Below are positions 547 to 63,368 of a stretch of DNA of 64,000 nt, piece by piece. The DNA is taken from contig CAJINV010000004.1 in assembly GCA_905178155.1 (NCBI GenBank), positions 4,520,518 through 4,584,517 on the forward strand, given 5' to 3'. The DNA is from Amoebophrya sp. A120 (taxonomy: Eukaryota > Protista > Dinoflagellata). Every line of letters begins with the position of its first letter. Within the stretch, counting starts at the first letter, position 1. The translations under genes and the position numbers were made by a program. The notes below the pieces were generated by a model that was given only the letters and a program-made list of their open reading frames with translations, was not told the DNA's origin and did not search any database.

Positions 547-3500
547 ATGACGGTAAAGAAAATGGTTGCGCAGCACGCTACTATAGGACCACGGAAGCGA
601 ACTACGGTCGGACGCCACACCACAGTAGTTAATACCCGGGGAAGTAGAGAGCATCTGGGTCAACACGAGGACAACACGATGAAAAAAGAGCAACAAAAAC
701 AATTCGAGCACGACGATCAGCCAGGCTCAGGCAGCCCGGCGGCCTCGCAGCTGTCGTCCTGCAGTGCGATCGTTACAGGCATATTCGTTGACGGCACGCC
801 GGTGCGAGATTTGTCCCGGATCGGTTTTCGTGCTGCGTCGAGCGACAGGGCAGCTTTTACAAACAAGTCACGACCCGGTACGTCGACGTCTACTTCCGCC
901 GTCAAAGGCGGTTTTCGAAGTAAATGGGCCCAAATTTTGGAGGTCATCGAGAACGAGGAAGTTGTGAATTGGGGCAAAAATAACGAAGCCCCACCCTCCG
1001 ACCTCCACGATGGAACGTCAAGTTTTTGCAGTACGGAGCAGGCCGAGTTGACCTTCGACAATTCGGAGGTTTCGTTTTACTTTGAAATCGGGATTCTCAC
1101 TCCTCCTGAAGGCTGCGACTTCATCGCGGCGGCACACGACCAGGAGGCATCAAACGGTAGTCATTTTTCAGGGTCGGCGCAGAAAGGTTCCAGTTTCAGT
1201 TTTACTCCGACGCGCCCAGCAATTGCGACCCCCTTCGGCTCCTTGGAGGTTCGACTGGATCGCGCGAGCGACCATGCGTTTCACTTGCTGAAACTGAGAA
1301 GCGGAGTGGAGCTCTTCGATGACCCGCGAGGAGGTCATCTCCCCACGACATCATCCACCGAGGAGTCGTCCTCTTCTTTTGCAGCTTTTCTTCCTCCTGA
1401 ATTGCGCAACGTTTTTCACGACAGAGACCTTGAGGTCGAAATGCTGATTTCGGTGAACAAAGCATCTCCGAAGACAACTTCACTAGATCCACGTGCAGCT
1501 CCGGCTCCCGAGCATGACAGCTTGGTGGATGCTGAGGCGCTGCTTCGCTTCGAAGCTTACCAACAGTACGTTGCGAACAGTTTACAGCTCTGTGAAGCAG
1601 GAGGCGGAGCATCACTAGACCACGGAGCAGCTTCTTCACACCATCACGACTCCGCCTTGTGGTCAACGTCGACCACGCCACCCTCGATGAGAAATTTCTT
1701 CCTCGTGCAAAAAGAACCCTTCGAGCGCATCATTGCGTTGCTGAAACAGAAAGAACAACTTCTCTTCACGAAACTCAAAGAATCGGAGCTGGAGCTGGCC
1801 ATGCGGGCGGCGGGCCAGGAAAAGAAGATGGAGGCATTGCTGAAAAGGTTTTCGGATCTGCTGCGAAACCACTCCTTCGGCACGCCCAGTGGCAGTGCCA
1901 ATGGGTCTCCCGTGGAACAACAACAGATACTGGATATTCTTGCCAAAGACGCCCTGCAACAAAGTAGTACTAGAACAGACTCGACACTAAACGGCGACGG
2001 TCAAGAGCATCGAACTGCTGGTGTTGACAGCTGTGCTGTGCAAGCCGTCAAGAAGAGCCAGAATCTGTTGACAAGCGATACCGATAGCAAGATCCGGCAG
2101 CGGCAAGTGTCGGACACAGATTGGAAAATCGCTTGGAACCAGCTGTTTCTTACCGCGGCTTTGCAAGGGAAAAGGGTTGCGCTGGAGGACGTATAGATTT
2201 AGATATAGATTTGTTTCCGTAAACGTAATAAAGTTCTTTGCTGAAATGCAAAATTGGTGCTGCACCTGCACCAGATCCGGCACCTGTGAATGATCTTCTT
2301 GCTTGCTATGCTTGTTCATCTCGTCTCCATGGCGGGGTACTTACCTGTTGTAAGTAGCAGTGGTGACCATTACCGCACCTGGAAAAATTATCCCATCGAC
2401 TTTTAATTTCTATCAGGCCGATTTCACCGCCCGCCATGCTGCGTGGATGCGCTCCCGAATTGCCACGGAGCGCCAGCGACTGCTCGCGCGGCACAAAGCG
2501 CGGCTGGTGGAGAACGAGGAGCAGATCAGGGTGTTGTCCAGGCGAATCAGCGAGGCCGAAGCTGCGGGAGCTGCCGCGGAGGGTACTAGTAGTACAACGA
2601 CCCAGCACGACGACGTGTTTATTGCGGGCAACAAGGAGGAAAGCATAAGCAATGAATTTGTTGACAATGTGTCGACTTTGGAGGCTGTCTTGCAGCGGTT
2701 AAATGAAGAATTCACGAAAAACGAGAAGCGGTTGGAGCTCGGCATGGTGGAGAATCAAGGACTCTGTTCGGAGGAGGAAAAATGGAAAACACAATTGCAA
2801 TATTAAATGTAAAAATGTCTGGGTCTGGAAGAATGCAACTTGTCATGCTAGATCTGAAGCATGCAAAAATCTGTGTTGCATGATTACCAAAAGTCGTCCA
2901 GTTTTGACCAAGTCGGGAGGGAGTTTGTCATGTAGGATAGGCATGAGAGAGATCGCACAGAATCTGTCATGTTAGGTCCTACATTCCAGGCTTCATTGGT
3001 CATGGGAAAGCTGCATGACAAATCGCGCATTCTTCCAGACCAAGACACTTTTACACTCGATATGCAAGAAGCACAGAAGTTGCGGAAGTCGAAGGAGGAG
3101 GAATGGGAGGCACTGATGCATGTTGGGGCTACTGATGGTAAAAATCAACGAGATGGTGTAGTTGGTACAACTCTGCTTGACACGACAGGGACTACACCTC
3201 AACCTCATATCAACCTCCCGCCAATCTCTGTCCAACTCTGCAAGAACCTGAAAGAACACACCAAGCATCTGCAGGAAGAACGAAAGCAGCAAGACGGAAT
3301 TCTGGCTAAGATTGAAGACGCTGAAACATCTCTGCGGACGGAGCTTGCAAGGGTGAAAAGAAATAGCCTAGACGGTGAAAAACGTGCAGAAGGTGCGCGT
3401 CGCTCGGTGGAGCGGATGGAGAGATTAAAAGGTCTAGCTGCAACGTTGGAAGCGGAAAACGCACGGCTTAGTGAAGTCGTTGGGGAAAAGGTAATGCAAC

Positions 3501-9900: not shown

Positions 9901-12900
9901 GCAAGCACGGGAGGAAGCGGAGCGTCGTGCGCTCGAAGACGAAGAAAAGCAACAACGAGAACGCGCCGCACTGGCGGAGGAGCAAGCACGACGGAAGGAA
10001 GCGGAGCGTCGTTTGCTCGAACAAGAAGAAAAGCAACAACGAGAAGCTGCTGCAAAGGCCAAAGTCGCGAACAAGCTTCAGCAACGCTGGCGGGAGAGGA
10101 AGGAGCAGCGGGAGAAGGCACGTCTCGCCGCGAGGAATCAAAACCGCTGGGCGACTCTGACTGAGGCGCAATTAGTTGCCGCAGGGAAAAGCGCACTTGA
10201 TAAAGAACGGGAACAGATTGCGAGGACCACTGAGATTCAGAACCGGTGGGAGGAGATGGCAGCCGCTGCACTGGAGCGAGCCAAGGAAAAAGAAGCGGAA
10301 GACAGTGCTGCGCTGGCAATTCCTGCAGTTTCTCCTCCAAAACCTGCGGCAGGTGTAGGCGCGGCTCTCAGCAACATCGCCCAAAATATAAATAATCCTT
10401 TTGGAGGCCAGAAGGCCGTGAACAGAGAGCCGAATCGCGATCCTTTTTGTCAAAAATCGCCTTATGGAGCCCTTGCTGCGTTTGAGGAATGGTTGCACAG
10501 CGGAATTAGAGACCACGGCGCTATGAACTCAAATGGTGAATTTGATGACAACATTCTTTACAATCTTCTTTCCAGCAAGGACGTCTTCCGACAGGATCCC
10601 AATACTTTGCGGCAGCATCAAGACGCACTCGTAAGAGAATTCGCCACTCTCAGGCTCGCAACGGAGTGGTTCGCCCGCTGTGTCGCGGCGAAGCCGAAGT
10701 CTGCTGCTTCATCCCTCTTGGACCGCCTGTCTGTATTATCCCCCGACAACACACGAGGACACCAGCGGATGAAAAATAACAGCGACGGTGCTCCCCCTGG
10801 AGGTGTGCCGTCCACGTCCTCTGAATCGAGTCGCCACCGTTCGGTTGTGGCCACAAGCGCAGTGCGGGCTCTGGCCAAATTTCTTCGCCCGGACTGGTGG
10901 ATGGCACGAAAGACCGCGTTTCTGACGGAGGAACAGGCAAAAGATGAGGACGTCAGCCAAATGACTCAGGAGGAGGCCGATATGCGTGGGCTGCTCGAGT
11001 ACCGCATAGTGCGCGAACTGCATAAAAAGATGCTGGTGACGTCGACGTCAGCGACAGCCTCGAGTACTACTGCTACGAGCTCTACTGAAGGCGCCGCTGC
11101 TGGTGCAAGTCAGAAAGAGCCCGAGAAGATACAGTTGCTGCCGGAATACTGGAGCTTGGACGACGAGAAATCTAGAATGCAACAGGAGACAGACCTGATC
11201 GAAATCTTCGAAAACGTTCTTCGCAGCGATTTTGCCACAGCAGACGCGCAAGCGGAATCAGAGATTTTTGCTCGTGCAGCTTCACGAGGACCAGCGGCTC
11301 CTGTTCCAGATGATAGTCAGACGGATACAGGAGTATCAGGACCTGCGACCGTGAGGTGCGCGTTCTCCCGAGGTACGGCCGTAAGACAAGTCAGGGCGGT
11401 AATTATGATAGGCCACAACTCGTCCTCCACCTCCTCCTCCTCGTGTGAAATAAAACACGGACAGCAACAGAGAAGACGAGGGCTGTAGTGATTTTTCCAT
11501 AATTAAACAACAACAAGAGATCATGTTGACCACCATGGTGATTTGCATTTAATAAACAAGAAATCTTGGACTTGGTACTACACCTATTTGGACAGTTGTA
11601 GTAGTTGTACCTACTGCGCTGTTTACTAGTAGTACAACCACTTGAAGAATGTAGTAGTTGTAGCTTCTCGCAATTAGGAATTGAAGTCACTAGAACTAGC
11701 AGCTCAGCGTCTACAAGCACGTAGCTGCAAGTGCGTTTTTCCATGACGCCAGGAGATCGGGAGGGGGACGCGTTGTGCACTCGGATAGTATTGGTTGCGG
11801 ATCTACTCGAGAATTTTATGCTGATGGAAGAACATCGGCAGGTCGAACAGACAACTGGAAAGCAGGCTGTACGACCATCGGACAGCGGTGAGGTGGAGCA
11901 GCAACAGCAAGAGCCTCCAGTTACTGCTGCTGCTGGTGGAACAAGCGTGGGACCGGAACAACAAACTCGAACTACAGGCACGACTGCTGCTGGCTTGTCA
12001 GAACAAGTCTCCGCTGGGTGGATCCGGGGGGCGGCAGCCAAGATAGGTTTCCTTGGTGCAGCAATGAATAAAATACGTCGACAAGGTGCAGGCCCGCAGG
12101 CGATCGAAAACCAACCGGAAGGAGAGACCGGAGTAAAGCAGCCGAAAATATTCAGCCGTGTGGTAGTTGGCCGTTACCCTGCACTGAAGGTCGTGATAAC
12201 CAAGAAACGCCTGGTCAACGCGCAGCAGTTCGCGTGGAGGGCGTTTGGGTGGCAAACAGTGAGCATATCGGAACACAATGACGAACTCGGTGTCTTGGGG
12301 GACATGTATTTCAAAACCTTCGGGGTCGGGGAGGCACAACTACGTGGGAGTCAAGAAATAACGCGGTTGCTCAAGAAAGCGTTAATGTTGAAGCCGGACG
12401 AGAACCCGGAGCAGGAGGTGGACGTCGACTGGTATGACGCACCACACCTGAACGGACGTAACAAAGGATGGGAGGGCGTATCGCTTGAAGACCGCCTGCT
12501 CGAGCAGATCCATACTGTGCTGAGAGACTTTTCCTACAGGGGCCTGACCGAAGGCGAGCTTCAGACGCTGCAATGGGCGTCCTGGGCCAGACGCCCCGGT
12601 AGAATCGTCCGTAAAATAAACCTCTTGCCCCTTGCAGCTGCCGGAGAAGGAGATGATGACGTTGACGGCCATGATAACACTAGTTCGAGTGGCGCGCCGC
12701 CACAACAACCGGCCGAGGAGACACCGGGGGCTTCGTCAAGTTCTGCGAGCGGGTCGTCCGACGCAATAGCAAGTGCAGCGCAAGAAGAAGCGACTCGCGA
12801 TTCGTCGGAAGATGCTACGCGCCTCGAAGGAGGAGCATCAGGAGCAGGCGAGGATGCTGGAGGTTTATTAAAATCTAGCACCGCTACTGATCATCGAATT

Positions 12901-15347: not shown

Positions 15348-18322
15348 ATGTTCGATGTCGTACATGGCTACGACGGGTTGAAATCGAAACTCGACCAAAT
15401 CATCGCAGAAACTACGTCGAACGGTGTATGCAAGAAAAAAACTGTGTAAGTGTAAATCTGTGATGCGGAAAATGCAAAACAGTTACACTTGTCATGCTCG
15501 ACATGCATGATCGGCTCGTTTCCTATGTGTTTTCCCTTCCTATCTGCGCATAACAAGTTTTCCCTGTCATTGCAGACAAACTTGTGATGCTGTTTTCCCA
15601 AAAGACTTACACTAACACATTTTTTTTCTTGGATACGGTGGATCAACCCCCGATGATGAAGCTAAAGCACTTCTACAAGAACGACAACCAGCTTTATTCA
15701 ACAGGAGCATCGTCGTGTGTCTTGACGAGGGAAAGCATTGGCTAGGGGCGCATTTATTCTACAGAAACAATCTTGCTGCCGGCGAGAAGAACAGGAGGAC
15801 CAGCACTGCTGATATTTTTACGACTGCAAATGTTGCGACTCCTGCAGTTGATTCAACATCATCATCGTCATCCACGGGTGGACGAGCGTCGTCGAGTCAG
15901 CAACCACGCTTGCAAGTCTTACTCTTTGACACACTAGAATTGGACATCGAGAGCCTGTGGATCTCCCAGCTGCTATCATCGCCCGAACGAGGTCGAGGAG
16001 GTGGAACTACATGGCAAAGCAAGAAGAATGCATGCTACGATCTTTTCCTGCTCGGGCCGATCTGCGATTATCGTCAGATAAGGAGTAGCTGTCAAGGTGC
16101 GGTGTCTGGCACGACGTCGACCAGCAGTACTAGCAGCGGAACAAGTTCATCATTCAAAAAACTCTACTACGACCGGCACCGCGGATTACCGCACCGCAAG
16201 ATGATCGCGCAACCCACACTGCAGAGCCAGCGGGACGGCACCTGCTTGGCCAGATGTTTGGCAGTCTTGCTCTGGCTGCGCTTTGTTCAGCAGATGAATA
16301 GTGATGTTGATGACAAAGACAATGGGACCTCTCGAAGTACTTCGCCGCGCTATCAGAATTATCTTCAAACCGCCTTCGACCTCGAGACGAAGCTTTTGCA
16401 AAGAGGCAGAACCTTTATCGCCCCAGAACTTAGTTCGCAAAGGAATCCAGACGCTTTTCGCCCGAAGCAGGAGGACAAGTGTGGGAACCAACAGGTTGTC
16501 AACATGACCACAGACGCCAGTGAACAGTTGATCGAGCACGAGCACGAGTTTTACCCGCTACGTACCTTGTTTTCCACCGGAGAGCGAGACACCTTCGGAA
16601 GAAGGTTCTATACGCACACAACTGCAGCTATGATTCCTGCAGCAGGGGCGGGTGAAGAACAGAATGATCGTGCCAAAAATGGGTTATTCGGCCACGTTGA
16701 AGATGGGAAGAAAAATGGAATAAGTGCAGAAATTCTTGCCGGTAAAAAGCAGAAACCGAACCCTGACATTGCTTCAAAACCGCCTGAAAGTAGTTCTTCC
16801 GCCGGATCCGGAACAAAAACTCGTCCTGCGGCGGCCTCATTTGACCCCCCCGACCGGTTACTTCAGGAGTACGTTGTTGCGAATGCTAAACTCGCAGCTA
16901 TCCGGGAACGCTTTTCGTTTTCCTCATCATCATCCCGCGAGAGTGTTGTAGTTGAGGGCGAAATTGTTCTAAACGCGTCCTCGCGGCCCCGTTCGTCGCA
17001 TCAGTTCCATAGACCCGCCTCCGCCTGGCGACTGGCCGAGGATTTAGGGGGGGACCATGTGAAGCGATGGCAGTTTCTGGAGGAGGTTTGCTTTTGGTTC
17101 GGCAACTACAACTATCAGGTGATAAAGAAATCGGGCTATGCTGTGCGGGAAGTGTTACAGGACCATGCAATGGAGCAAGAGGACAGGACAACGACAACTG
17201 CGAGCGGAGTTGCTGAAGCTACATTCTCAAACAACATCAAAAGCCCGCGCGGCGATCAACATTCTCTGCCACCTGTTTTGCTCCACCCAGCGAGTACGAA
17301 GATTCGAAAGTTCAGGCACCGCAAGACTGGCTTGATCACACACGAGGCAGACCCGACCTTTTTCGAGCCGCTGGAGGCGTGCATCGAGTTTCTCTGCTGC
17401 ACCACAGCTACAACTACCGAAGAGGAGAAGGAAGAGGGGCGGCATGAAGAGCAGCCCCTTGCACAAGATGAAGTAGCAACAACAGTATTAAATCACCCAC
17501 AGAAGTTCACAGTTTGCCCTTTTCCGAAAGTTTTCGAATCCCTGTGTCTGGCCGATATGCTTGCGCTACAAGAATCGCTAGGTGAATGTAGTACAGATCA
17601 TTCCGCGGGTCGCAGTAATTTCTCCGGTGGGGCGGGTCCTCGTGCAAGTAAAGATCATGATTCTGCGACGAGTTCTTGTCCTTTGCATGGACCACGAGAT
17701 CATGAACCAGAATCGCAGGAGATGAAGACAGCCTCTATCATCGACCTGATAGAAAGGATTGAAGTCGACAAGAGCCACAGACGTGTCTTTGTCTCGGACT
17801 ATGCACTGGACGGGAGCTTTCTGAATGATCCGGAACGCGACATTGATCTGCAAACGGAACTCCGCATGCCCGTTCTGTTGAAGCGGTAGGTGGGACAAGT
17901 AATGACTGAAACTTCTGCAGCTCCGGTGGGGGGGCCACGTGCAAACGATACTAGCCAGGCTCGATGAGGATGAGATTGAGAAACAATTGCGTTTCATCCG
18001 GGTCACGTACGTGTGTCGTTCTTAGCAGCGCTTTGCACGTGAAATAATGTTGACAAGGCAGCACTTGCCTTTCACGATCAATGACAAGGCAACGTTTTTC
18101 ACGACTGCAGACAAGCAGCATTTGTTTTTCGTTTTTTTTTTGTGTGTCAGCAATCAAGATCATCGTGAAGATCTAGACCATCTTCAGGATGGACGATCGC
18201 GGCTAGGACGAACGAAAGCAGTTGTATTGCAGCAACAAGATAAATCAACATACCTGCTTCATATTTTATTACGCTTTGGCCTTCGCTTGTTTGATACTAC
18301 GGATCGCCAGCTGCAAATATGA
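15348..18322 (+). CDS. Hypothetical protein, possible clan CE (Ulp1/adenain-like) cysteine protease
   Basis: ATG at 15348. Removing 15427-15640 gives ...TTSNG|GSTPDD...IVVCLDEGKHWLG in frame with ORF 15715. HW, FD and Q..C motifs occur in CE-clan order. Two GT-AG introns after 17886 lead to a stop at 18322. Confidence 0.55.
15427..15635. mobile_element. Introner family K (TIR TATGCAAGAAAAAAACTGTGTAAGTGTAA)
   Basis: TSD CGGTG at 15422-15426 and 15636-15640; frame restored. Confidence 0.88.
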
Positions 18323-29773: not shown

Positions 29774-29827
29774 AGAGTTACTGGCTGTAGTAGGGGCTAC
29801 GGGTCAATTTGTTTCTACGCGTGGTTC

Positions 29828-42970: not shown

Positions 42971-43128
42971 GGACCACAGAAGCGGTAAGATGACGTAGTA
43001 AGTACTTACAACTGTAGTCCTCGACTGGATGTCTCTTCGATGCGCATTGTCGATGAAACATGACCTGAAATTGAACAGAGCTGTTGCAGCTGTTTTTAAT
43101 TTCGACTTGTTCTATTCGGAGGAATGCA

Positions 43129-45344: not shown

Positions 45345-45517
45345 TAAAGTTCTTGAACTCTTGCCGCGAGGACGGCAACCGTGGACGACCGTGGCTGGCG
45401 GGATCCGATCGTGGATCGATCTGCGCGGAGGACGACCCCAGTTGTAGCTACTCGATCGATCATCTGCGCGGACGATCCCAGTTGTAGCTACTAGCTCGCT
45501 GTGAAGAGCGAGGTCGT

Positions 45518-48500
45518 TTGTCGTGCAGGAACATGGCTGGTCTGGTCGCACCAGAGAATAGACAAGGATCAAGAAGTAGTAAAAACACGAAAGGGAAGGC
45601 TCGTCCTGGCAACGACGCTGCTCCTTTTGAAATGCGTCCTCTACAGCTTCCAGGGGCCTGCGTAAACCTGCGTTGTACAGGAGCGGGACCGCCGGCGCAA
45701 CAGCAACAGCCGTCCCTTGAATCGCTTCTGCACCGTCACAACGAGAAAATCAGCCGAGCGCTGGGCCTCCGCGGCCAGTGTTGCGTGGGGCTTTGCGGCC
45801 TGTATTGCGTGCAATTTTTTCAAGGCTGTGGGGTTGGTCTTCAAGCGGTGGAGCGGCACTTTGAACAGCTTGCACGAATTGCGGAAAAGCTGACGGGAGA
45901 TCATCTTCAAGATGAGAACGAAAAGTCCGCTGAAGAAGACAGGAACTACTCTGATGTTGACGAGCAGAGTGAGGGTCGTGAAGAGGACGAAAGCGAAAGC
46001 GAGAGCGCCCCTACGCCATCTGTCGGTGTGGGAAACAGTGCTTCTTCATCGTCTGCGGGGGGTGCTACAACTCGGCGGGTGACGCAGCATTGTGGGCGGG
46101 GCATTACGCCCAGCTGCACGCCCGAAGACGACGATGACGTCCCGTGGTTCTTGCCTTTGAAGAGCAACAGCAAGACGAGACTACAGAAGCAAATAAAGGT
46201 GTGTGCTTCTTCTTCACAGGCAGCTGCAGCTGGTGGAGCAACTACATCTGCTTCGTCAAGAATTAAGTTGTCCTCGGGCCACGCCGGGAACTTCAAGCAA
46301 GGTCGTTGTTCGGCACAGGCAAGCCCTTCACGACTGCCTCAATTTGAAGATGTCCTCGAGAACAATAACAAATCGCACAAGAAGAACGGAATAAAAAATC
46401 CCTACCACAACCTGACTGTCAGCGAGCAATCAAGTGTCGACGTCGTTCTGGTCCTGCAGCGGCTGCAGTTTTTTCACCTGGGTGTGCGGAAGTTCTTCGC
46501 CATTGCAAGCCCGCCCGGAAGAAAGCTGTTTATCGACGCCACGCTGGGGCGAGGACCAGGCGCGGCTGCTAGTCTTTCTGCTGCGATAAAGGGAGTAGGC
46601 GACGATGGCTTCGTATCAGAAAAGAACCACCGTCGCAAAGATGTTGAACCCAAAAACCGGCGGCGCAGCCTGGCGGAGCGTCTGCAGGAGGAGTTGGAGA
46701 TGACGTCGCCAGGATCTTCCACCTCTGGGGACGACGACGAAAGTCAAAACACAGCGACCTTGCTGGGCTGTCGCGCCGCTCATGCCTATGCGAGTTCGAC
46801 GACACAAGCCGTGAAGCTGCAAGGCAATACGGCTGCCAGGCAGCACAACCTGGCGGGCCGTTCATCGGTAGGACCTACAAGTCGGAGTCGTTCCTTTTCC
46901 GATCATATGGGAGCTCCGACCGTGGTCTCTGCCGGGAGTAATAAGTCCCAGTCCCGCCACTGCAGTTCCATGTCGCCGATGAAAACAAGGAACATGATTC
47001 TGTCGTCCACGTCTAGAGCTGCGTCGCTGCACCACGACAGAAAAAAGGAACAACCGGACGACGCAAGCGGCCAAACGACAAACAAACGCGCTATGTGTGC
47101 GTTTGAAGCACTGGATTGCGGCTTCGATGCTCTGTGGGTCGACCTTTTTAGGAATGACGAGAAACACGCGGCGGCCCACGAAGAACAAACGGCGAAAACA
47201 AGAAGTTTCTCCGTCGACGCAAGCACCGCGGGACACGTTGTGCGCTTGCACACGGTGAGGACCTCGAACGCGAGTTCTACGACGACCGGCAAGAACAACT
47301 TAAACTCCCGTGTAGTTGGCGAGCAGTTTTATTCCGTTGGACGCGAGGAGGAACGAGCTGAGCTTGCTGCTTGTTTTCGGGCAGTGCTGGACGTTTTTAC
47401 GGGACAGTTAAAACTACCACTACACAGAGATCGTGGTCTTGCAAAGACGAGCTCCGACGACGACCACCTCCGCAAAACATCACCTTCCACAGCGAGTACT
47501 ACGAGTGGTCTTTTTTGGTTCGCCCGTGTCAGCTTCTACCGCTACAGCCAGAAGGGGGACATGATCGGCGCGCATCAAATGTGTTTGTCGTTGGCAACAA
47601 GAGGTAGAAAAGCGTCCACCTCGGCAAGTGGTCCAGGAGTAGATCTGGAAGCAGTAGACGTGGTCTTTTACGACCCGAACCGTGCGCCGCGAGTGGTCTG
47701 TTTGGATGAACAAGCGCCGCTTGTTCATCCAAACAGACCACTCGGTGGACAAAAACAGCAAGAAGCTGCATCGCGGGCACAGCTTGAGAATCACTTCCTC
47801 CAGTTTTTTGTCGATACGAGCGTTTCACAGAAGCGGCTGCAAAACACGAAGAGTCTGGTGTTCTCGCTCAGTGTGTGGCGGAGCAGAAGTAGTTGTACAG
47901 CTGCTTCTGGTTGTGATGGATCAAGCTCCGCAAATGACCAACTCTTGACGAAGTTCGCCAGCATCCGGAGGCGATATCAAATGCAAAAACGTCTGGGTCT
48001 GAAAACTTGTGATGCTGGTTGGCGAATTCTGAGACTGAGGACGCCTCAAGTGACGGCTCAGCATGGCAAGTTTCTGACTTGCTAGGTGTTGGTGTTGCGT
48101 ACACGTACTCTGCATGACAAACCGCGTCTCGACATGACAGAAAAGCGGGGCTTTTGGGTAACGAGCATGACAGACTTTGGGGTCATGCTAGCAGAGCATG
48201 ACAGACCTTCCATTCTTCCAGGCCCAGGCATTTTCGCAATCCATAGGCGAACACCCCTCGCAACTCTTTTCCGCGATCAAGCGGTGACCGAGCGGCTGTT
48301 TCGGGTCATCGGGGGAAATTTTTCGACGCAAGATGAAGGAGGTCGGCAGATGAAGACGATGGATGTAAAAACAACTACCGGCTCTTGTACTTCTAGTAAT
48401 GCAGCAAGAAGAACTTGTTCTTCTTATCAGAATGAAAAATGCCCCCACCCCCGAACTTGAAAGCATTTGTATTGCAAACCTTTCCAAATGAAACATTCGC

Positions 48501-49522
48501 CCTCTTGCATGTATCAGCATTACAGGTTTCCAATCGTGAATAGCAGAAATTTGTATTGCAAAAGACCCCAGCAAGAGCGGCGCTTGTCATGCAAGCGATG
48601 CGATACACGCCTAGACTCTGCATCAGAAAGATTCGCACTCCTTTCACGCATGACAAAAAGTTTTCATTTGGAAACTTAGCATCACAAATTTTTGCAATTT
48701 CAGGGGTGGGGGGCACTTTTCACTGCAATACTTCTACATGTTGCCCCCACACCGACGATTTTTTCGAACACCTACTACAAAAAGAGCATATCCTGTGGAA
48801 AAGTATCTATCGCACTCGTATTGCAGTCATGCCTTACAAATTCGTTTCTTAAGGTATATCCGTATTACAAATTTTATTTTGCATGCTGAGGAAATTTGTA
48901 ATGCCTTTATACAAGTGCGAAGATACTTTAGCAATGCATGGAGCACCCGGGCCTACCTGGCTACCGGCGGTTGCTGGATCGCGCACTGAAATCGTTGGTG
49001 AGCAGTTTGTACTTTCACTTGTCCCTGCCGAAAAACTGGATCTACAATAAAGCCCTGCAGTCGGTGAAGGGCACTTTTGACGACTACGAGGACTTCGCTT
49101 CCTACGTGCGGGAGTTTGCGAAGTCGACAAATTATAACTCGTGCGCGGAATTATTCGTAGACCATCAATTATCGGGAACTACATCCACCTCTTCGACGAC
49201 GTCTCTTCTCGCGTCCGACGTGGTTTCATCTCTTGCGGAAAATAAGTCTGCAAGAGTTCTTACCTCCTATGGGGCTTTATTTCGGGATAGCTCCCGTGCG
49301 AGGAAAATTCTGGTCGAAGCGAACCCGGAGAGATGTGGCGTTTTCTTCTTTGACGAACCGTTGGCAGTCATCAAGCGTGCAGCAGGTGGCGGTGGAACAA
49401 TAAACGGAGGAAAACTTCTAAATCACTGTGGGACTTCCACGCGGCGAACCAGCGGCAGTGCCGTAACATCTGCGCGACCGAGCCTCGTGGAAATTTTACA
49501 GGCGTATTACAACGCCACTTAA
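45518..49522 (+). CDS. Hypothetical protein, possible papain-fold (C58-like) C-H-D protease; 3 introners
   Basis: Removing elements at 47975, 48425 and 48789 joins SIRRR|TPLAT...TCSS|TCCPH...QKE|HPGLP. Motifs GQCCVGL, GAHQMC, FYDPN. Confidence 0.6.
47975..48245. mobile_element. Introner family A
   Basis: TSD GGCGA; GC-AG reading possible. Confidence 0.9.
48425..48730. mobile_element. Introner family C
   Basis: TSD CTTCT. Confidence 0.9.
48789..48940. mobile_element. Introner family B
   Basis: TSD GAGCA; right terminus reads CATG. Confidence 0.88.
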
Positions 49523-55062: not shown

Positions 55063-58000
55063 ATGATGGGCGGGACGAGCGAAGATAATTCTACCAGCGC
55101 GATCATGGACCTGATGCTAGGCACAACGACCGGCGATGAAATTATAAATCAACACGACCCAGCACCTCATGGTAGTCCAGAGCTAACCTTCAATCATGCC
55201 ACCGGCCAGATGGTGATGACTACAACGGCGCCCCCTGGTGCTGGTCCACCTGCTCCCGCGCTGGCCGCCGTCGTGCCCAGTGGAGTAGGAGGGGTCGCAA
55301 CCACTATTACAGGTGATCAGGAACTACAATGCTCAACACAAAATCACAATGCGACTGCGACTTCGCGAGGTGACCGTACTCCGGTGACCTTTGAAGAATT
55401 GATGAACGTGCAAAGCGACGACCCTCTTCTTGGGGGTCAGACTGCTTCCGGACAAGGTTCTTCAGGCTCTTTCGCTCCTTTTAATAATCCCGTTTCGTCG
55501 AACAGCGGGGCCGCAGTAGATAATAATTCCATGAATGCTGGTGACATGGAACTGGTCACTTGGGCCCTGCAGCAAAATGTTCCGGAGGTGGATAATCGAC
55601 ATCAGCAGCCATTTGTTGCTACTAATATCCACTGGAACAACCACATCAACAACCAAGGGCCCCCGCAGCTGCTGATGCACCAGATGGGTCAACACCAAAA
55701 CCAACAATATCTACACGTCGCAACTACTAATAGTAGTGCCCCGTGTAGTACTACGACATCTAGAGGCGCCGGGGCAGGACCACAACTACATGGGCAGCAC
55801 AACAACCCGCACATCATGATGAACAACTATCGATTACCTTTCGACGCGACTGTCGCAGGGAGTGGAGGGGGAACGCCTGTTCTCGACGGGGGCTTCTTCG
55901 GGGGCGGCACCACTACGTATGCATTGCAAAAGGATCGTTCGTGCTAGTATAAATTGCATCACAAAAAATTCCAGCAAGAACAGAAGTGAAATTTGTAATG
56001 CTGTTTCAGGTTTAGAAAGAGATTTGTCATGCATGAATGCAATTTATACGAGTGCGATACTTTTGCACAGGATACTACGCCTCAGATGTTGATGAACAAC
56101 GGGGGCGGTTCTTTGTTTAACCACAATGCTTATCACAGCAAAAAGTGTTAACGTTAACGGAATTTGTGATGCAGCAATGCATCACAAAACATGCCAAAAT
56201 TTGTAATGCATAGCACGCATATTGGGCTACATTTGTGATGCATGACTGCAATTTGTGAAAACCGTTACCGTTAACACTTTTCCTTGTGATAATGCTGTTA
56301 ACATGAACATCAACCCGACCACAGCAAGAACCGCTAACACTCCCAGAGGCGGCATTGGTTGCGCCGGTGCTCCTATCAAATGTAAAAATGTCTGGGTCTG
56401 GAAGGATCCGAACTTGTGATGCGCATTTTCGAACACAGAAAAATCTCTCATGCATAGGTAGCAAAAGGTGCTCAATTCTGTCACCAAAGTGGGGGGTTTC
56501 TCATGCGGGTTCGGCATTGCGGAGGCTTCTCGAAACCTGTGATGCTAGAGCTTCCATGCCAGACCTTCTGTGTCATGCAAAAACAGCATGAATCTTCCAG
56601 ACCCAGACATTTTTACATTTGATAGCTCCGACGCCGACCGCTGCGCAGCTGAACGGCGGAGCTATGGAAGCGTCAGAATCGAAATTGGCAAAATCGAAAA
56701 ATTTGTGATGCACAAAATCGATGTCAGTTGGAGACTCAGTTTCCAAATGGCGCATGACAAATTTCGGGAGTACCCAAATCCAGTCTGTGATGCTGTTTGG
56801 ACAAAGAAGACTCCTCCTGCAGTGCCACTCTGGCAGCACATTGCATACCCCTAAACAGGCTTGCAATCGGCCTCATTTGCCTGCTCCCCAATACAGGCCT
56901 TCAGTGCCCTACATTTTACGCATCACAAATTTTTCGATTTTGTCGATTTCGATCCTGACACATCCATAGGAGCCTGCTCCCCTTTGGTGGATCCGTTCGC
57001 GCCGAGTTGGCTCGTGGGCACGCTTTTAGAAGAGGAGAAGCAGCTGAAGCCGGAAGATCAGAGCGAAAATAAAGACGGCGCTGCCGCTGCTGATTCTTCA
57101 TCTTCCGGAGGTGACAAAACGTCGGCTGTAGACAACTCTGGCACAACTACTACTTCCGGGGGGAAAAACAAAGAAAACAAGAAGCAACTCGACGAGCTTG
57201 TGGTAAAGGATGTCTCGACGCCGCTCGCCATTTCAGGAGCGACACCGTTCGGCGCCGGAGAAACGACTAAAACGCCGCGGGGTTTTACCAGCAACGCGAT
57301 GAACATAACGGGGGCGCAGCAGGCGCAAAATGGAGAACCAACATTGCGTATATGTTTAATATAAACTGATGATTCTTTTGCTTGGAATTTCGCATTGACT
57401 TCTATCTTGAGCTAGCAGTCTCGAATTCTGATTTGCTCCTCGTAAAATTTAGATTTATGTATCATGACAGCTTTGCCGTCAACAAACGGCTCCTCCACTG
57501 GTACTACCCATGTTGCGGCGGCCAACGCAGCCGGCGTGAGCTCGACCGGTGCGAATCAGATTTTCAATGTGGTAGACCCGTCCCCGATGAACAAAAATAA
57601 CGGCGAGCAGAGCTGCATGAGCGGCGACCAGAGTAACCCATTCTTGCAATTCAGTGGCGACGCGCTGGAGGCAGCGATTGACGAAGCGGTGGGGCAGTGG
57701 AAGTTTGACGACCCAACTCCTTTGAACGACGGAGGAGGAGGGGGTTCCGTAAGTTGTAGAAGAGATCATGCGGCGAGGACTTGTTACAATGATCTTCACA
57801 ACAACAATTTTTATAGGGCCGGCGCGGGCCCGTCCCGTGGCAAAAGCAAAATGAATAACAACAGCTTTCATTATCATGGGAGCAGAGGTGGGTCCTCGCG
57901 CGGAGGTGGTGGAGGTGGTAATTACTACGATCAGTACCACAAGATATGAACTGCAAAAGTATCGTACTCGTATAAATGCATTACAAATTTCCTCAGCATG

Positions 58001-61000
58001 AGAAATCAAATTTGTAATGCGGGTTGACCTTAAGAAAAAGATTTGTATTGCATGATTGCAATACGAGTACGATACTTTTGCACAGGATACAAGAACAGTA
58101 AAAACAACTTTCACGACCAACAGAACCACCTATCAAATGCAAAAATGTCTGGGTCTGGAAAGTTGTGATGCTAGTGTCCGAATGATACGCAACCTGTATT
58201 AGGGGACCGCGCATCACAAGTTTCTGAGCGGCTATGTCCAGCGTGAGCCGCATGACAAATGGCCTGTTTGCATGACAAACAAGTGGCACTGTAGCGCGCC
58301 AAGCATGACAGACTTTTCTGTCTTGTCAACCAAGCATGACAGACTTGCATTCTTGTTCCACACCCAGACATATTTGCAGTGGATACCAACGCAATAAGTA
58401 CAACGACCAGCAAATAAATCTTCACCCCGTGGTCTATCCTGTGCAAAAGTATCGTACTCGTACAAATGCAAGTCTTGCATTACAAATCTCTTTCTTGAGG
58501 CAAATCCGCATGACAAATTTTATTTCTCATGCTGAGGGAATTTGTAATGCATTTATACGAATACGATACTTTTGCAGTTCATATGGTCCGGCGAGGCGCG
58601 ACGCCAACCATGGAGGTTCGGTACACAAACGGGCCGAGTACTAATCTCCTTGCCAGTGGCGGAGGTGCAGGAGCTCCTGGTGGAAACAAGGCAGCCGGGG
58701 TGATGAATGGAGGCAAAAATTATAGTAACTCGTTTTACAACGGCGCGAACGGAGGTCAACCGGAGAATGGTGCTGGACCACACGGAGTTGCCAATTCATC
58801 TCAACAAGGCACCACTACTGCGGGAGATTCTACTTCTTGCACAGCGGCCTACTACACTGGTGTTCAACAAGGAGGCGCTACAGCAGGAGCAGGTCCAGCT
58901 GTTGGTACCAGTATAAAGGGGAGCAAGATGAGTCCCCACTATGCGCCTCAGGGCAGCCCGGGGAAGAGCGGCTCTTTCCTGTTGAGCAGTTGTAGTACAA
59001 ATAAAGCTGCTGGTCAACTGGACGAGGGGGAAGGTGGTGCCACCGGCGCTGGTGCACCAGCTGAATCATCTTCCGTGGTCACAACAACAACTTCGACGAG
59101 TCAGTATGTGAAGGACCGTTTTTTCATGCAACGAACGACCAGCAAGCCGGCGCCCAGTCCGAAGGGCAGCCCCAGCAGTCGTGTCATCATTCAGGAGGAC
59201 GGCACGCGCCGGGAGCGGGATCTCGTTCACGGCGGCACGGTGAATTTAGCACCCATTCCGCCGATGGAAAAAGTCTTTTGCGCGGACACGCTCTTTCCAC
59301 AGCAAGCTATTGCTGGGGGTGGTGGTGGCGGGGCTCCTCTTGCGAACAACATCAATCATGGAGTCGCGGGGGGACCCGGACCTGAACAGCATCTGTCAGC
59401 GGCGGGAGGAGGTGTTACCGGAGGCACTACATCTGGTGCTACAACTTCAACTACAAGAACGACTACAACTTCCGAGGTGGATCACGAGATGCCGGCTCTG
59501 ACCTTGGACTCCGGTGGAAGTGTTGCGAACAGACCAGAAACACGAGATGCTGCCGACGAGCAAAAATCGCCGGAGCTGCTGCCAGGACGAGAGACCGCCA
59601 CCTACACTAAAGACGACATCGAAATGAGTCTCGCGGACACAGAGCCGTCCTCTCAGGGACCGAATTCCGCCGCCGTGCGGCCGGTAGATGCAGCATTTAA
59701 AAATGTGATACCGGCGGCAGTTGTGCAAGAACAACACCAGAATGATACTAGTACCGGCACGACCAACGTCAACAACATCGGGGGGCAACATCAAACGCAA
59801 TCAATTCTCTCCACACCCGAAATCAAGGAAGATTCTGCGCCGGCAGCCGCAGCTGTGACAGAAAATAAGAATGAAGAAAGTGCCACGACGAAGTCGTTGG
59901 AGGAGACGGCCGCGGCTAAGATGAACTTTTCCAATGTGAAAAAGCGCGAGGCTGATCGTGATGAAGACCACGATGTAGGAGCTGCCCTCGCAGTTACTGT
60001 CGCGGAAGTTCCACAGGGGGACAAAAGCGAAAGGCTGCAAGAGAGATCGACGACGGCCAAGAAAGTGAAGTTGGATCTTCATGGTAGTCCTACTACGGGC
60101 GCCCAAGTAGAGCCGCTGAATGAACAAGGGGAAAACGACGAGAAGGGAAAGTCCAGCGGAGCGCAGGAGATCAACACGACGACGGCGAACATTTCCAAAC
60201 TTAACACGAAGGTCCACCTCGGTGTTGAGGATCCGGAAGCACTGCTGGCTGCACCTGAGGAGGAACGCAGCCACCTTGCTTCCACTAAAGAGCCGACTAC
60301 AAATCAGCTCTGTTCTACCAAAATGACGCGATTAGAAGTGGTCGACCTCACATGCACTAAAACCACCAATTGTAGTGAGACGAACAGCACTTCTAGTTCT
60401 CCCGTGGTGCTTGACGCCGCGAATAAAGACGAAGCCGAAGTACCAGATCGTGCGCTTTTGGCCGCGTCCTCTTGTACGACCACTGTCGTGATGCAAGGAC
60501 AGCAGGAGACCCGCCTCGCCCAGGATCAACAACAGCAGGAGCAGGAAGACCATCGGCATGCAAAAATCATCCCGGAGATGAAGATCCAGCACGAAGTTGG
60601 TAGGAGCACGTCACAACAAGTACTAGCGCCATCATCCGGTTGCTGTATCAAGAACGATAAATCTTCTGCAGGCGCCTCATCTGGTGAGAATGAGAACATG
60701 GTGCCTGAGGAACAAATGCTTCTGAAAACTGCTGCAAATGGCCAGACTGCTGCTCGTCCAGCCAATCTCCTGCCTCGACCACAGCGCAGAGGTGGGTATT
60801 TTTTCGGCGCAGAAAGGGATCACGTAGCGGTAGCGAAGGTTGAATACATTGACAGCAGCGCGGGAGGACGGGGTTTGTGTGACAAGGACAGTAGTGAAGA
60901 TTTGTTGAGTAGTAGTTCCTGCCAGGACAATAATCTAAATCTACTTTCTCCTGGTGAAGATGAAAATAAAAAACTCCTTCATCACGACGAAATTAAAGAC

Positions 61001-63368
61001 ACGATCGTCCTCGACCACGGGGCCCCCGATGGAAACAAGAACGGCGCAACGTCGCGTCGTGGCGACTACGTGTGGGTCACGTTCAAGAACGGGAATCAAG
61101 CCTGGTTCCGGGCACCTAAGTACATTCGCGGGGGAGAAATTATCACCCAACTGAAATCTCCTGTGCTGAAACCAGTGGCTGTTGATGTTAGTACTCGAGG
61201 TCCTCTCGACGGGCGGGGACCGTTACAGCCGTTGGCCGCAGGGGACGAGGTGAAAGCAACTTGTTGTTCCATAATCGACAAGCAGGAGGAAGAACTGCCA
61301 GCGGTTGATATCACTCCAGCCCCGATCATCGCATCCAGCAACAGGGGTGTCTCTTCACTGCATCCAGAAGAGATTACAGGTGAGGTGGGAGCGTTTGTTA
61401 ACGTCAAGGGGTCCAGCACCTCGACTCCGAAGATCATCGATCCTCCCGAACATAATCTTCGAGATTCGCAGACAGACCAGAAAAACGGGAACCAACAAAA
61501 TACTAGTTTTAATATCCCAGCATTCCCATCCTCATCCAAGAAGAATTTGAATTATACCCGTTTTGATTCCCTTCCGCCACGGTTTTTCCGACTGAGCTGG
61601 GAAGAGTTTATTCGGGATCTACTAGACGGCTGGCTGGACGAGTACATAGTGCGAAACGCGTGCCAAGTAAAGGCGGACGCGGTGGTGGAAAACAAACTGC
61701 TGTTCGTGCGGGAGCAGGAAAAGCACATCGTCGGGGGAAACACGCTATGCAGTGCAAAAGTATCGCACTCGTATTGCAATCATGCATCACAAGTCTTTCG
61801 CTAAAAGGTAAATCAGCATTACAAATTTTATCTCTCACGCTGAGGAAATGCATTTATACGAGTGCGATACTTTTGCGATGCATACACGCCCGTGGCGTTG
61901 AGACAGGAGAATGAGAAGAAGTTGCAACATGTGCAGAAAGATCTGGACACCTGGTTTGCGGCGGAGCATGCGAAAAGAAAGGGCGTTGATGCTGTGTTGA
62001 ACAAAGGGGATGAAGAACATGAACACGACCAAAGCGGTAGTGCTGATGGGCGGGAAAGAACGAAGGAAATAATTCGGCTGAAGCACACCTGCTTTCCCAT
62101 CCCGCAGGTTGCCATAGCAATGATCATTGGGAATGAAGGTAAAAGCGTTATGTCTGCGGAGGTCGAATAGTAGAATTTACATTTTTTTAGAATGTTTGTC
62201 GTTCTTCGGCACCACCACCACGACATGCACAGTGGACGATTTCATCAATTTTTCGTCAATCCAGGTCGCACGGTGAACTGTTACGAGGAGAAGTCTGGGT
62301 GCTACATTGGCGTTCGGCACGAGAGCCTGTGCGGAAAGGCGTATGGCATTGTGGAGATTGTTGGGTTCGACGCGGAAATTATCTACGCCGTGGAAGAAGA
62401 CATTCACCAAATGGTGGACCGAGCGATAGAAATGTACTAAAGAGCCTTCACTTACTGTATTTAGCGCTGGTACTGCATCACTTGAATAGAGTACAACCTC
62501 TGGTGTCTTTCTGCGATTGCACGGTCCTGGAAGAGGATTATTGTGCATTATTTTCTCAAAGTAAGCTGCATTTCATCTCGCCTGCGCGTACCACTTATGC
62601 GTAATAATAGCGATGTGCTTGATCCTCGAAGATGAAATACATCACAGGAAAAGCAACCACCTTTTGACGGCTAACGACAACTTGACTCCGGCATCTCGCT
62701 TGCGGCAGGTGCAGGGAAATAGAATGAAGCGGACATCGAGCCAGAGGACTGCTTTTTTCGACAAGCGGAATACATCTGGTGAAGGCGATCGCGATCCTGA
62801 CGAGAAAAAGAATGCAAATACCGCTCCGGTAGAGGTGGACGAGATCGACCGGTTTGCCGGCACCAACGCTGGCGTGGCGCAGCAGCAGTGCATCCCGGAC
62901 AGTAGCCGCACGGGTAGTTGCAATATTCAATCTTCACCATGTGAAGATCATTCTGTGTCAGATGAAGCTGTTGACGGCTCCTCGCCGAGGTCCCCAGCGT
63001 CCAAGCGTGCCAAAAGCAACACCGGTCGCGCGGTGACTATGGTAGTTCAACGGAAAGAACCTACTTCTGACCAGAAAATTTCATCTGTGGCGACGTTGCA
63101 GAAAGAACAAGGCCTGGCGCTGCCCGATGTGCTGGATGAGCCTTGTTCATCAACATTTTCACGGCCGGGTACAACAACAGCCGGACCTGCTTCAAACGGA
63201 GCTGACAGCGAGGAGGTGGATGCTGCAACGGCGGTTGTACTTGCAAATTTGACTCAGGAGCAACGATCCACCAAGAAGATGAACTTGTGCCGAGATTATG
63301 ACGGCAGTAACGTGCCCAACAGGCAAGTTACCCAAAGGGTTACGGTTTTTTTTTTTCGGTGTAAATAA
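55063..63368 (+). CDS. Large low-complexity protein with a KH RNA-binding domain; 8 introners plus canonical introns
   Basis: Frame maintained through 8 element removals and GT-AG introns (57348-57470, about 62139-62264). KH signature FPIPQVAIAMIIGNEG|RTVNCYEEKSGCYI...VEIVG. The 3' end is uncertain. Confidence 0.75.
55918..56074. mobile_element. Introner family B
   Basis: TSD CTACG. Confidence 0.9.
56131..56291. mobile_element. Introner family G
   Basis: TSD ATGCT. Confidence 0.92.
56374..56624. mobile_element. Introner family A
   Basis: Perfect 31-bp TIR; TSD GCTCC. Confidence 0.95.
56663..56968. mobile_element. Introner family D
   Basis: TSD GGAGC. Confidence 0.93.
57945..58089. mobile_element. 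Introner family B
   Basis: TSD CAAGA. Confidence 0.93.
58131..58385. mobile_element. Introner family A
   Basis: TSD ccacc/ccaac. Confidence 0.87.
58435..58583. mobile_element. Introner family B (opposite orientation to 57945)
   Basis: TSD TGGTC. Confidence 0.93.
61746..61884. mobile_element. Introner family B
   Basis: TSD CACGC; removal joins GGNT|PVALRQ. Confidence 0.92.

What the first reader, a model, noticed from the sequence alone, without database searches (positions are those of the whole stretch)
2796..61889. Multi-family TA..TA hairpin introns with 5-bp TSDs that must be excised precisely without GT-AG signals
Seen: about 30 elements in at least 10 families (A-K) share TA(T)...(A)TA TIRs and a 5-bp TSD of essentially arbitrary sequence. 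For every intragenic copy, deleting the element plus exactly one TSD copy restores the ORF. Trying all six registers, only about 4 can be GT/GC-AG (21043, 34956, 41192, 47971) and about 2 GA-AG. Known: introners with inverted and direct repeats and non-canonical ends have been reported in Amoebophrya; to my knowledge their excision mechanism is unresolved. Inference: removal is guided by the terminal stem and the direct repeat, by a modified spliceosome, an endonuclease/ligase route, or DNA-level excision analogous to pointer-bounded ciliate IESs.
Basis: partly seen in the sequence, partly recalled or inferred. Interest (0 to 1): 0.92.

Follow-up and report, generated by a model that had tools for sequence, protein, structure and literature searches.

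The report
Hairpin introns cut without splice signals
Genes of the marine parasite Amoebophrya A120 are riddled with small hairpin-shaped mobile elements that lack normal intron ends yet are missing from its transcript assemblies; this was already published, but natural mutations here show one front-end U is always kept while the flanking repeat can decay, which likely points to a relaxed spliceosome cutting at fixed distances from the hairpin.

Summary
Observation confirmed: 33 TA..TA inverted-repeat elements in at least 10 families; 32 have a 5-bp target duplication (TSD; 23 exact, 9 with one mismatch); 4 of 33 allow GT/GC-AG. The window encodes Amoebophrya sp. A120 proteins, and these are the introner elements of Farhat 2021, so the phenomenon is known. 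New constraints: (1) RNA-like contigs and annotated proteins lack element + 5 nt and keep the upstream TSD letter at all 6 informative mismatches, so the cut falls after TSD base 4 or 5. (2) In 307 coding insertions (mostly from a second assembly) the sense-strand first T never varies, while its mirror A varies 10 times (p=0.002). (3) Seven insertions without a usable repeat still restore long frames at +5 nt. This disfavours RT template switching, DNA excision and repeat-guided removal. Best reading: RNA splicing at fixed geometry, likely a U1-less spliceosome reading N-U-A as donor (about 0.55); rival: a hairpin endonuclease/ligase. Selection on the stem was not detected, and register 4 versus 5 is open. 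The scan noted similar introns in other dinoflagellates and Euglena.

The parts
2801..3062 (+). element, family 0, TSD TGCAA exact
11404..11787 (+). element, TSD GTAAT/GTATT (mismatch at base 4); P0003 keeps the upstream letter (Met)
15427..15635 (+). element, family 2, TSD CGGTG
21047..21311 (+). element, family 0, TSD GGTGG; GT-AG possible only at register 1
23044..23193 (+). element, family 1, TSD GGCAG/CGCAG
28596..29773 (+). 1178-bp element with long nested palindromes, TSD AGAGT, longest ORF 70 aa
32236..32542 (.). element of the 40455/56663 type, intergenic, no 5-bp TSD, flanked by an imperfect duplication of about 75 bp
33222..39049 (+). host gene with 10 elements; its spliced translation equals public protein P0001 (423 aa, Amoebophrya sp. 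A120)
33984..34176 (+). element, family 13, TSD TTCTC/TCCTC; RNA-like contig keeps the upstream letter at base 2; a related protein (P0002, 80% identical) reads into an element at the same site
34266..34558 (+). element, family 3, TSD TGCAG
34601..34915 (+). element, family 6, TSD AATGA/TATGA; P0001 keeps the upstream letter
34958..35295 (+). element, family 3, TSD AAAGT/AAGGT; contig end implies register >=3
35329..35467 (+). element, family 1, TSD ATTGG
35508..35809 (+). diverged element with family-0-like ends, TSD AAAGA/AAAAA; P0001 residue and contig end both imply register >=4; weak fold (z about -1)
35875..36110 (+). element, family 7, TSD TTTTT/CTTTT; P0001 keeps the upstream letter
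36197..36419 (+). element, family 5, TSD CCGGG
36466..36615 (+). element, family 1, TSD GTACC
36664..38980 (+). element with family-0 ends carrying a nested insert of about 2 kb; TSD AAGAA; removed in P0001
40455..40885 (+). element, TSD CGCTC
41193..41422 (+). element, family 5, TSD CGAGG/GGAGG; GT-AG at register 4
41683..41944 (+). element, family 0, left end TAG, TSD CAACG
42349..42599 (+). element, family 0, TSD ACCCG
42650..42960 (+). element, family 4, TSD AGGAG, 9 codons before the stop
47975..48245 (+). element, family 0, TSD GGCGA; skipped exactly in RNA-like contig, present in DNA-like contig
48425..48730 (+). element, family 10, TSD CTTCT; skipped in the same RNA-like contig
48789..48940 (+). 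element, family 1, right end mutated to ATG, TSD GAGCA; skipped in the same RNA-like contig
55918..56074 (+). element, family 1, TSD CTACG
56131..56291 (+). element, family 13, TSD ATGCT
56374..56624 (+). element, family 0, TSD GCTCC
56663..56968 (+). element, family 6, TSD GGAGC
57945..58089 (+). element, family 1, TSD CAAGA
58131..58385 (+). element, family 0, TSD CCACC/CCAAC; no protein or contig covering it was obtained
58435..58583 (+). element, family 1, TSD TGGTC
61746..61884 (+). element, family 1, TSD CACGC; removed exactly in public protein P0004

Best explanation
These are MITE-like transposon insertions (TA..TA ends, 5-bp target duplication) that are absent from RNA-like contigs as element plus 5 nt, and they are likely removed by a U1-less major spliceosome that would cut one base before the front TA and four bases after the back TA. 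Shown: fixed 5-bp TSD; both orientations tolerated in genes; removal of element + 5 nt; cut after TSD base 4 or 5; invariant sense-strand first T; dispensable direct repeat. Inferred: the cut is after base 4, so the donor reads N-U-A-U and the invariant U is the +2 U of a spliceosomal donor, with +1 G and the 3' AG no longer required; the hairpin stands in for U1/U2AF by bringing the ends together and fixing the 3' cut by distance. Because 1 + 4 equals the 5 nt duplicated on insertion, any insertion site is restored, which would explain the genome-wide spread.
For: RNA-level removal: RNA-like run X1 record 6 (4276 nt, 0 other letters) skips 47975, 48425 and 48789, and its record coordinates match element + 5 nt exactly. 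The lengths of records 2 and 5 fit removal of 8 further elements. X1 has zero depth in 4 of 30 bins, all without exons. P0001 equals the 10-element splice with 0 differences at register 5, against 3 differences at register 0; P0003 and P0004 each give one more junction. Register: upstream letter kept at 6 of 6 informative mismatches: base 1 twice, base 2, base 3, base 4 twice (35508 also by contig end). Polarity: 5' T variant 0 of 307, mirror A variant 10 of 307, p=0.002; I had noted this prediction before the test. Repeat dispensable: 7 cases. Retention is tolerable in only 4 of 290. Both orientations: family 0 68:54, family 1 25:18. Farhat 2021: 83 of 89 spliceosome proteins and U2/U4/U5/U6 found in A120, U1 not detected; A25 repeats start TTA + two purines and its main donors are TT, which also puts T at +2 and A at +3. 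That +2 U is the most conserved donor base, read by U6, is recalled knowledge.
Against: No base-5 mismatch with RNA evidence exists in the window, so register 4 is not distinguished from 5. At register 5 the T is +1 and the spliceosome analogy weakens. There is no enrichment of G at +1 (96 vs 86 expected) and no AG excess beyond codon phase; AG gains and losses are 5 vs 4. No 3' position is invariant (A at -7 varies 3 of 307), so no branch point is identified. Wobble test for selection on the RNA stem: 66 vs 56, p=0.42; 35508 folds no better than shuffles (z -1.0) yet is removed. An early deficit of base-5 mismatches (1 of 33) shrank to 10 of 90 and is partly a codon-phase effect. Two elements with a non-T at the would-be 5' end (L073:945, L108:301) were left out because +5 nt did not restore a frame; counting them would give 2 vs 10. 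One of the 10 variants has neighbours on both strands. Public gene models are imperfect (P0004's start differs from my frame). The X1 and X5 run types are inferred.
Confidence: 0.55

Rival explanations
1. RNA-level removal by a non-spliceosomal hairpin endonuclease plus ligase (tRNA-splicing or IRE1/RtcB-like, or the unknown euglenid route) that reads the first U at the stem base and cuts at register 5 (or 4).
For: Everything that shows RNA-level, strand-polar, fixed-geometry removal fits equally. No G+1, AG or branch signature. 30 of 31 window elements tested fold at z <= -2 with ends paired. Euglenid nonconventional introns leave as circles, not lariats (review passage).
Against: The single invariant base is where a spliceosomal +2 U would be, and A25 shows the same T/A spacing. 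A stem-cutting enzyme should select on pairing near the cut, which was not seen. A 2.3-kb nested element and a weakly folding one are both removed. No candidate enzyme was examined.
Confidence: 0.3
2. Removal is guided by homology between the two TSD copies (repeat-guided splicing or ligation), as the first reader proposed in part.
For: 240 of 307 coding copies have exact TSDs; base 5 has the fewest mismatches (10 of 90, p=0.02 against uniform).
Against: Per-site TSD mismatch is 4.8%, similar to drift in the repeats. 7 coding copies with 3-5 mismatches, a repeat displaced by 3 nt or an 8-bp repeat still need exactly +5 nt (mod 3). Base 2 versus base 5 (same codon phase) is not significant, p=0.18.
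Confidence: 0.07
3. Elements are excised from DNA in some life stage, like pointer-bounded ciliate IESs.
For: TA ends and short direct repeats resemble IESs. Only one DNA-like sample (two runs) was laid, and contigs drop rare variants.
Against: DNA-like X5 contigs run unbroken through 11 element junctions at 22-29x, like flanking DNA (records 7 and 10-14). A second assembly also retains the elements in genes. The conserved T and the retained TSD copy follow the direction of transcription although the elements are symmetric and lie in both orientations. Low-depth retained forms occur in X1 beside the spliced form (records 3 and 4).
Confidence: 0.04
4. The skipping is a reverse-transcriptase template-switch artefact at hairpin plus repeat, and the genes are dead.
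For: Strong hairpins flanked by direct repeats are the classic setting (recalled). All RNA evidence here is cDNA-based, and none of the 10 proteins or exon translations scanned has a Pfam match.
Against: RT copies the downstream TSD first, so it should keep the downstream letter at base 3-4 mismatches; the upstream letter is kept. Frames run 650-1170 codons past old insertions without a stop. An artefact cannot explain a strand-polar invariant T or repeat-less copies that restore frames.
Confidence: 0.04

Closest known systems
Introner elements (IEs) / non-canonical introns of Amoebophrya sp. A120 (Farhat et al. 2021, PMC7789003)
   Same: Same organism by protein identity (P0001, P0003 100%). 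IR motif TAT + 7 nt + AAA, direct repeats, many families, no transposase, non-canonical ends, RNA-supported.
   Different: Nothing in kind. The paper gives 3-5-nt repeats and variable splice positions relative to the hairpin. Here the TSD is strictly 5 bp in all families, the cut lies after base 4 or 5, the first T is strand-polar invariant, and the repeat is dispensable.
A120 introner families in Gozashti et al. 2025 (PMC12130899, Dataset file 8)
   Same: TIR DNA elements of about 150-350 bp, superfamily unknown, mostly non-canonical annotated ends.
   Different: Their automated TSD calls range from 2 to 5 and annotated donors are mixed (gt, gc, ga, at, other), consistent with an arbitrary register. 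Their integrase-like family 38 is a candidate mobiliser that I could not test.
Euglenid nonconventional introns (review PMC11282704)
   Same: TIR-closed hairpin, TSD-like repeats at the junctions, MITE origin proposed, mechanism unknown, longer unpaired tail at the 3' end.
   Different: CAG/CTG at +4..6 and -8..-6 rather than TAT/ATA; a purine/pyrimidine border consensus; released as circles. Here the tails are 1+4 (or 0+5) nt and only one U is fixed.
Fritillaria borealis non-GT/AG introns (bioRxiv 10.1101/2025.08.15.670264, abstract; review PMC11282704)
   Same: MITE-derived non-canonical introns removed by a modified U2 spliceosome: a precedent for the best explanation.
   Different: They keep preferred ends (AG-AC, AG-AT) and retain U1; here both end dinucleotides are nearly arbitrary and U1 was not detected.
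Micromonas/Aureococcus TIR introners (Huff et al. 2016; recalled, not read)
   Same: Intron equals element plus one TSD, with splice sites drawn partly from the TSD.
   Different: They need canonical sites; here only 20 of 307 coding copies can be GT-AG at any register.

Membership tests
Amoebophrya A120 introner element (Farhat 2021) | host genome is A120 | tested here: met
   two window exons are 100% identical to proteins that the sources name Amoebophrya sp. A120
Amoebophrya A120 introner element (Farhat 2021) | terminal inverted repeats starting TAT + 7 nt + AAA | tested here: met
   positions 1-3 TAT in 97-100%, positions 11-13 A in 84-93% of 290; definition
Amoebophrya A120 introner element (Farhat 2021) | 3-5-nt direct repeat at the exon/intron border | tested here: met
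   5 bp: 305 exact of 403 elements; k=4 1, k=6 0
Amoebophrya A120 introner element (Farhat 2021) | repeated families, removed from transcripts, non-canonical ends | tested here: met
   14 multi-copy families among 414; 3 junctions shown and 8 inferred by length in RNA-like contigs; 4 of 33 GT/GC-AG
MITE / non-autonomous TIR transposon | TIRs, fixed-length TSD, short, non-coding, both orientations | tested here: met
   median length 260 nt
MITE / non-autonomous TIR transposon | cognate autonomous element and superfamily | tested here: inconclusive
   no long TA..TA element with a plausible transposase ORF in 599 kb; nested-insert ORF has no Pfam match; no viral contig carries the end motif; no whole genome available
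U2 spliceosomal intron | G at +1 and AG at the 3' end | tested here: not met
   10 of 307 are GT-AG at register 4 or 5; no enrichment over codon phase
U2 spliceosomal intron | U at +2 | tested here: inconclusive
   T invariant in 307 of 307, but it is +2 only if the register is 4
U2 spliceosomal intron | branch point and lariat; snRNP dependence | not testable with these tools
   no invariant 3' adenosine; needs lariat sequencing
Euglenid nonconventional intron | hairpin joining the ends | tested here: met
   mirror pairing probability 0.72-0.92 at positions 1-3 and 8-24
Euglenid nonconventional intron | CAG/CTG at +4..6 and -8..-6 | tested here: not met
   ends are TAT/ATA with 1+4 or 0+5 tails
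Euglenid nonconventional intron | released as full-length circles | not testable with these tools
   no raw RNA reads covered the exons
Ciliate IES | absent from somatic DNA | tested here: not met
   present at flank depth in DNA-like contigs and in a second assembly; one sample only, rare variants not visible
Ciliate IES | pointer repeat required | tested here: not met
   7 coding copies without a usable repeat

The most novel reading that the evidence does not exclude
A120 has a spliceosome that needs neither G+1 nor the 3' AG: it reads a single U at +2 and measures the acceptor four bases past a transposon hairpin. Because 1+4 equals the transposase's 5-bp stagger, every insertion at any site and in either orientation is born as a clean intron, so splicing geometry is matched to one transposase.
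Probability: 0.45. Interest if true: 0.85.

Novelty: already known. Interest (0 to 1): 0.58.

Why it matters
More than 60% of A120 introns are non-canonical and their removal mechanism was left open in 2021. The natural variants analysed here narrow it to RNA-level cuts at fixed distances with one conserved U. They also supply a cheap decisive test on existing RNA-seq: which letter survives at base-5 mismatches. If a spliceosome does this, both terminal dinucleotides that its active site is thought to need are dispensable in vivo, and a host tolerates an intron-generating transposon by matching cut geometry to TSD length. If a nuclease/ligase does it, it is a second mRNA splicing system, perhaps convergent with euglenids.

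Tried and rejected
No whole genome was held, so no genome-wide census was made. Run search: no holder on record as RNA was listed. The 2026 raw RNA run X8 covered only element fragments and no exon, so it gave nothing on junctions. No base-level read alignment across the ten-element gene is in hand; 8 junctions there rest on contig lengths and the public protein. Farhat Table S4 (9 of 9 main A120 donors have T second) first looked like proof of register 4. I rejected that, because an aligner seeking GT..AG-like letters would pick registers 1 or 4 anyway, and Gozashti's donor counts are mixed. The base-5 mismatch deficit (1 of 33) weakened with more data and better strand calls; one strand model mis-oriented 35875. 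An AG excess at TSD bases 3-4 (29 vs 15 for the mirror) is matched by same-phase flank positions. The wobble test was negative. Other 5'/3' asymmetries (positions 13, 20) do not survive 30 tests. Nearby in-frame GT..AG pairs exist for 8 of 32 elements within 10 nt and 27 of 32 within 30 nt, but are excluded wherever contigs or proteins cover the junction. Searches for a protein covering 58131 failed. Rfam: 0 matches in the window. Pfam: 0 of 10 proteins. Viral contigs: 0. One false call (6632) stayed in the family clustering but is not in the coding counts.


Full report
1. The observation. A census for direct repeats flush with a terminal inverted repeat gives a single peak at 5 bp: 25 calls, 21 bounded by TA..TA, against 0 TA-bounded of 49 at k=4 and 1 of 5 at k=6. 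Three shuffles gave 1, 0 and 0 calls. With relaxed and library scans the window holds 33 elements: 23 exact TSDs, 9 with one mismatch, 1 without. Removing element + 5 nt puts 31 of 33 in a long + strand frame. 30 of the 31 elements folded are more stable than shuffles at z <= -2 (12 shuffles each).

2. What it is. The first exon of the gene at 33222 matches P0001 at 100%, and an exon at 11794 matches P0003 at 100%; both are named Amoebophrya sp. A120 by their sources. Farhat et al. 2021 (PMC7789003; I read the abstract, sections 10-12 in full, passages of the discussion and methods, and supplement legends and Tables S4, S5, S7; figures not seen) describe A120 introner elements whose repeats start TAT + 7 nt + AAA, with 3-5-nt direct repeats. 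They report 29,850 copies, U1 undetected, and an unresolved mechanism. The window's elements fit that definition. Gozashti 2025 (PMC12130899; passages and 22 of 58 A120 rows of file 8) class most as TIR elements of unknown superfamily with TSD calls of 2-5. The related strain Kv has canonical introns and U1 (PMC12005148, passages). The phenomenon is therefore known.

3. Removal happens in RNA. Of four runs laid on 32001-49500, X1 is RNA-like (zero depth in 4 of 30 bins, all without exons; 41 Mb of contigs) and X5/X7 are DNA-like (depth in 30 of 30 bins); these types are my inference. X1 record 6 skips 47975, 48425 and 48789 with no other letters, and its coordinates equal element + 5 nt each. 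The lengths of records 2 and 5 are predicted exactly by removing eight more elements. X5 contigs cross 11 junctions unbroken at flank depth. P0001 equals the in-silico splice of all ten elements, including the 2.3-kb nested one; P0003 and P0004 add one junction each. X1 also holds low-depth (4-5x versus 36-44x) contigs that retain 34958 and 35508, as expected of pre-mRNA. X8 (raw RNA) covered no exon.

4. Where the cut is. Imperfect TSDs show which copy survives. The upstream letter is kept at all 6 informative sites: base 1 (34601, 35875), base 2 (33984), base 3 (34958; contig end 35328 fits register >=3, 35325 expected otherwise) and base 4 (35508 by protein and by contig end 35843 versus 35839; 11404 by protein). 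The contig-end argument assumes 31-letter words. So the donor cut lies after TSD base 4 or 5. RT template switching would copy the downstream repeat first and predicts the other letter at bases 3-4. Three imperfect sites (23044, 41193, 58131) have no RNA or protein cover.

5. A larger sample. A census that ignores the TSD when pairing ends found 403 elements (27 from the window): 305 exact 5-bp TSDs, 60 with one mismatch, 16 with two, 22 with more; k=4 gave 1 and k=6 gave 0 (the end library came from exact-TSD copies). Host strand was set by codon score after splicing: 290 of 417 passed, and 17 of 31 hand-corrected extras were added, giving 307. TSD letters are close to phase-matched coding sequence. 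20 of 307 can be GT-AG at any register and 10 at register 4 or 5. Both orientations occur. Retention would be harmless in 4 of 290.

6. One base is fixed, and it follows transcription. The first T on the sense strand varies in 0 of 307 and its mirror, the last A, in 10 of 307 (p=0.002). Positions 2 and 3 vary 2/3 and 7/3, so T is not generally immune. Neighbouring elements agree on strand for 8 of 9 variants checked; the ninth lies where strands change within the contig, and its own frame supports my call. Two elements with a non-T at the would-be 5' end were among the 14 extras not added, because +5 nt did not restore a frame. That fits the rule but could also hide counter-examples. A symmetric element inserted either way cannot show this polarity through DNA-level processes unless they are transcription-coupled.

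7. The repeat is a footprint, not the guide. 67 of 307 coding copies have imperfect TSDs. Seven have three to five mismatches, a repeat displaced by 3 nt, or an 8-bp repeat, and still sit in frames of 45-250 codons each side that open at +5 nt and not at +4 or +6. There is no RNA for these.

8. What went against my reading. No selection on RNA pairing was detected (66 wobble-keeping versus 56 pair-breaking transitions, p=0.42), and a weakly folding copy is still removed. No branch-point base is invariant. No preference for G at +1 or for AG was found. An early base-5 signal faded. The published T-second donor table does not fix the register. A codon-phase bias (132/88/70, p=3e-5) is unexplained.

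9. Mechanism. Shown: 5-bp staggered insertion; RNA-level loss of element + 5 nt; cut after base 4 or 5; invariant polar T; dispensable repeat. Inferred: register 4, which makes the donor N-U-A-U with the invariant U at +2 (that +2 U is the key U6-read base is recalled knowledge). The hairpin would then replace U1/U2AF in joining the ends and set the acceptor four bases past the last A. A25 repeats begin TTA + two purines, the same spacing. Fritillaria gives a precedent for a U2 spliceosome on non-GT/AG introns (bioRxiv 10.1101/2025.08.15.670264, abstract only; review PMC11282704, passages). I put this at 0.55, a hairpin nuclease/ligase at 0.30, repeat-guided removal at 0.07, and DNA excision and artefact at 0.04 each. 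The mobilising enzyme was not found.

10. Novelty. The elements are already known. I found no statement of a fixed 5-bp TSD across families, of the cut register, of the polar T or of the dispensable repeat in the passages read or in five literature searches (PMC12787238 passages held nothing on it). Subscription papers (Roy 2023, Henriet 2019, Huff 2016) were not read. Earlier scan notes report similar introns in other dinoflagellates and Euglena; I did not test them. Interest 0.58: known system, but its open mechanism is narrowed and made testable with existing data.

Noticed in passing
window 32156-32620: Element 32236-32542 has no 5-bp TSD but is flanked by an imperfect direct duplication of about 75 bp; intergenic; possibly an aberrant insertion or repair event.
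   Followed up: partly
window about 36757-38811: A 2-kb insert with its own inverted repeats and a CAAGA repeat, nested in element 36664-38980; central long palindromes; no Pfam match for its longest ORF; no depth in the RNA-like run.
   Followed up: partly
window 50000-52311: A 2.3-kb element with CACC..GGTG inverted repeats of about 45 bp, no 5-bp TSD and short internal tandem repeats: a different transposon type.
   Followed up: no
window 43136-43616: A 481-bp element with GG..CC ends and a GTAAA direct repeat, intergenic, with telomere-like short repeats inside.
   Followed up: no
window about 9327-9595 and about 4507-4688: Decayed elements with a recognisable right end only. The first may have TSD AAAGA/AGAGC, which would be a base-5 mismatch in a long frame, but no protein or contig covers it.
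   Followed up: partly
window 33984; protein P0002: A protein 80% identical to P0001 ends by reading into an element at the same site, so this insertion predates the split of the two lineages.
   Followed up: no
307 coding insertions: Insertion phase is biased: the register-4 junction falls between codons in 132 of 290 (p=3e-5). It may reflect target preference acting on codon periodicity; unexplained.
   Followed up: partly
L002:1-2300: An ABC-transporter-like gene whose membrane-like part and ATP-binding part read on opposite strands around elements: possible element-mediated inversion or misassembly.
   Followed up: no
TIR positions 4-7: The two arms differ by family design at positions 4-7 (41-72% paired) between well-paired positions 1-3 and 8-24, leaving a conserved internal loop next to the donor.
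   Followed up: no
window 8688-8946: A candidate canonical GT-AG intron with ACAG|GT at both ends, the pattern a register-4 insertion at an xxAGG site would leave.
   Followed up: no
window 58707-58916: Public protein P0004 starts in a different frame with a short intron where my splice gives one continuous frame from about 57450; one of the two models is wrong.
   Followed up: no
run X8 on window 34831-34915: An abundant transcript of another strain or locus retains an element of family 6 (about 520 reads), so some copies are not spliced.
   Followed up: no
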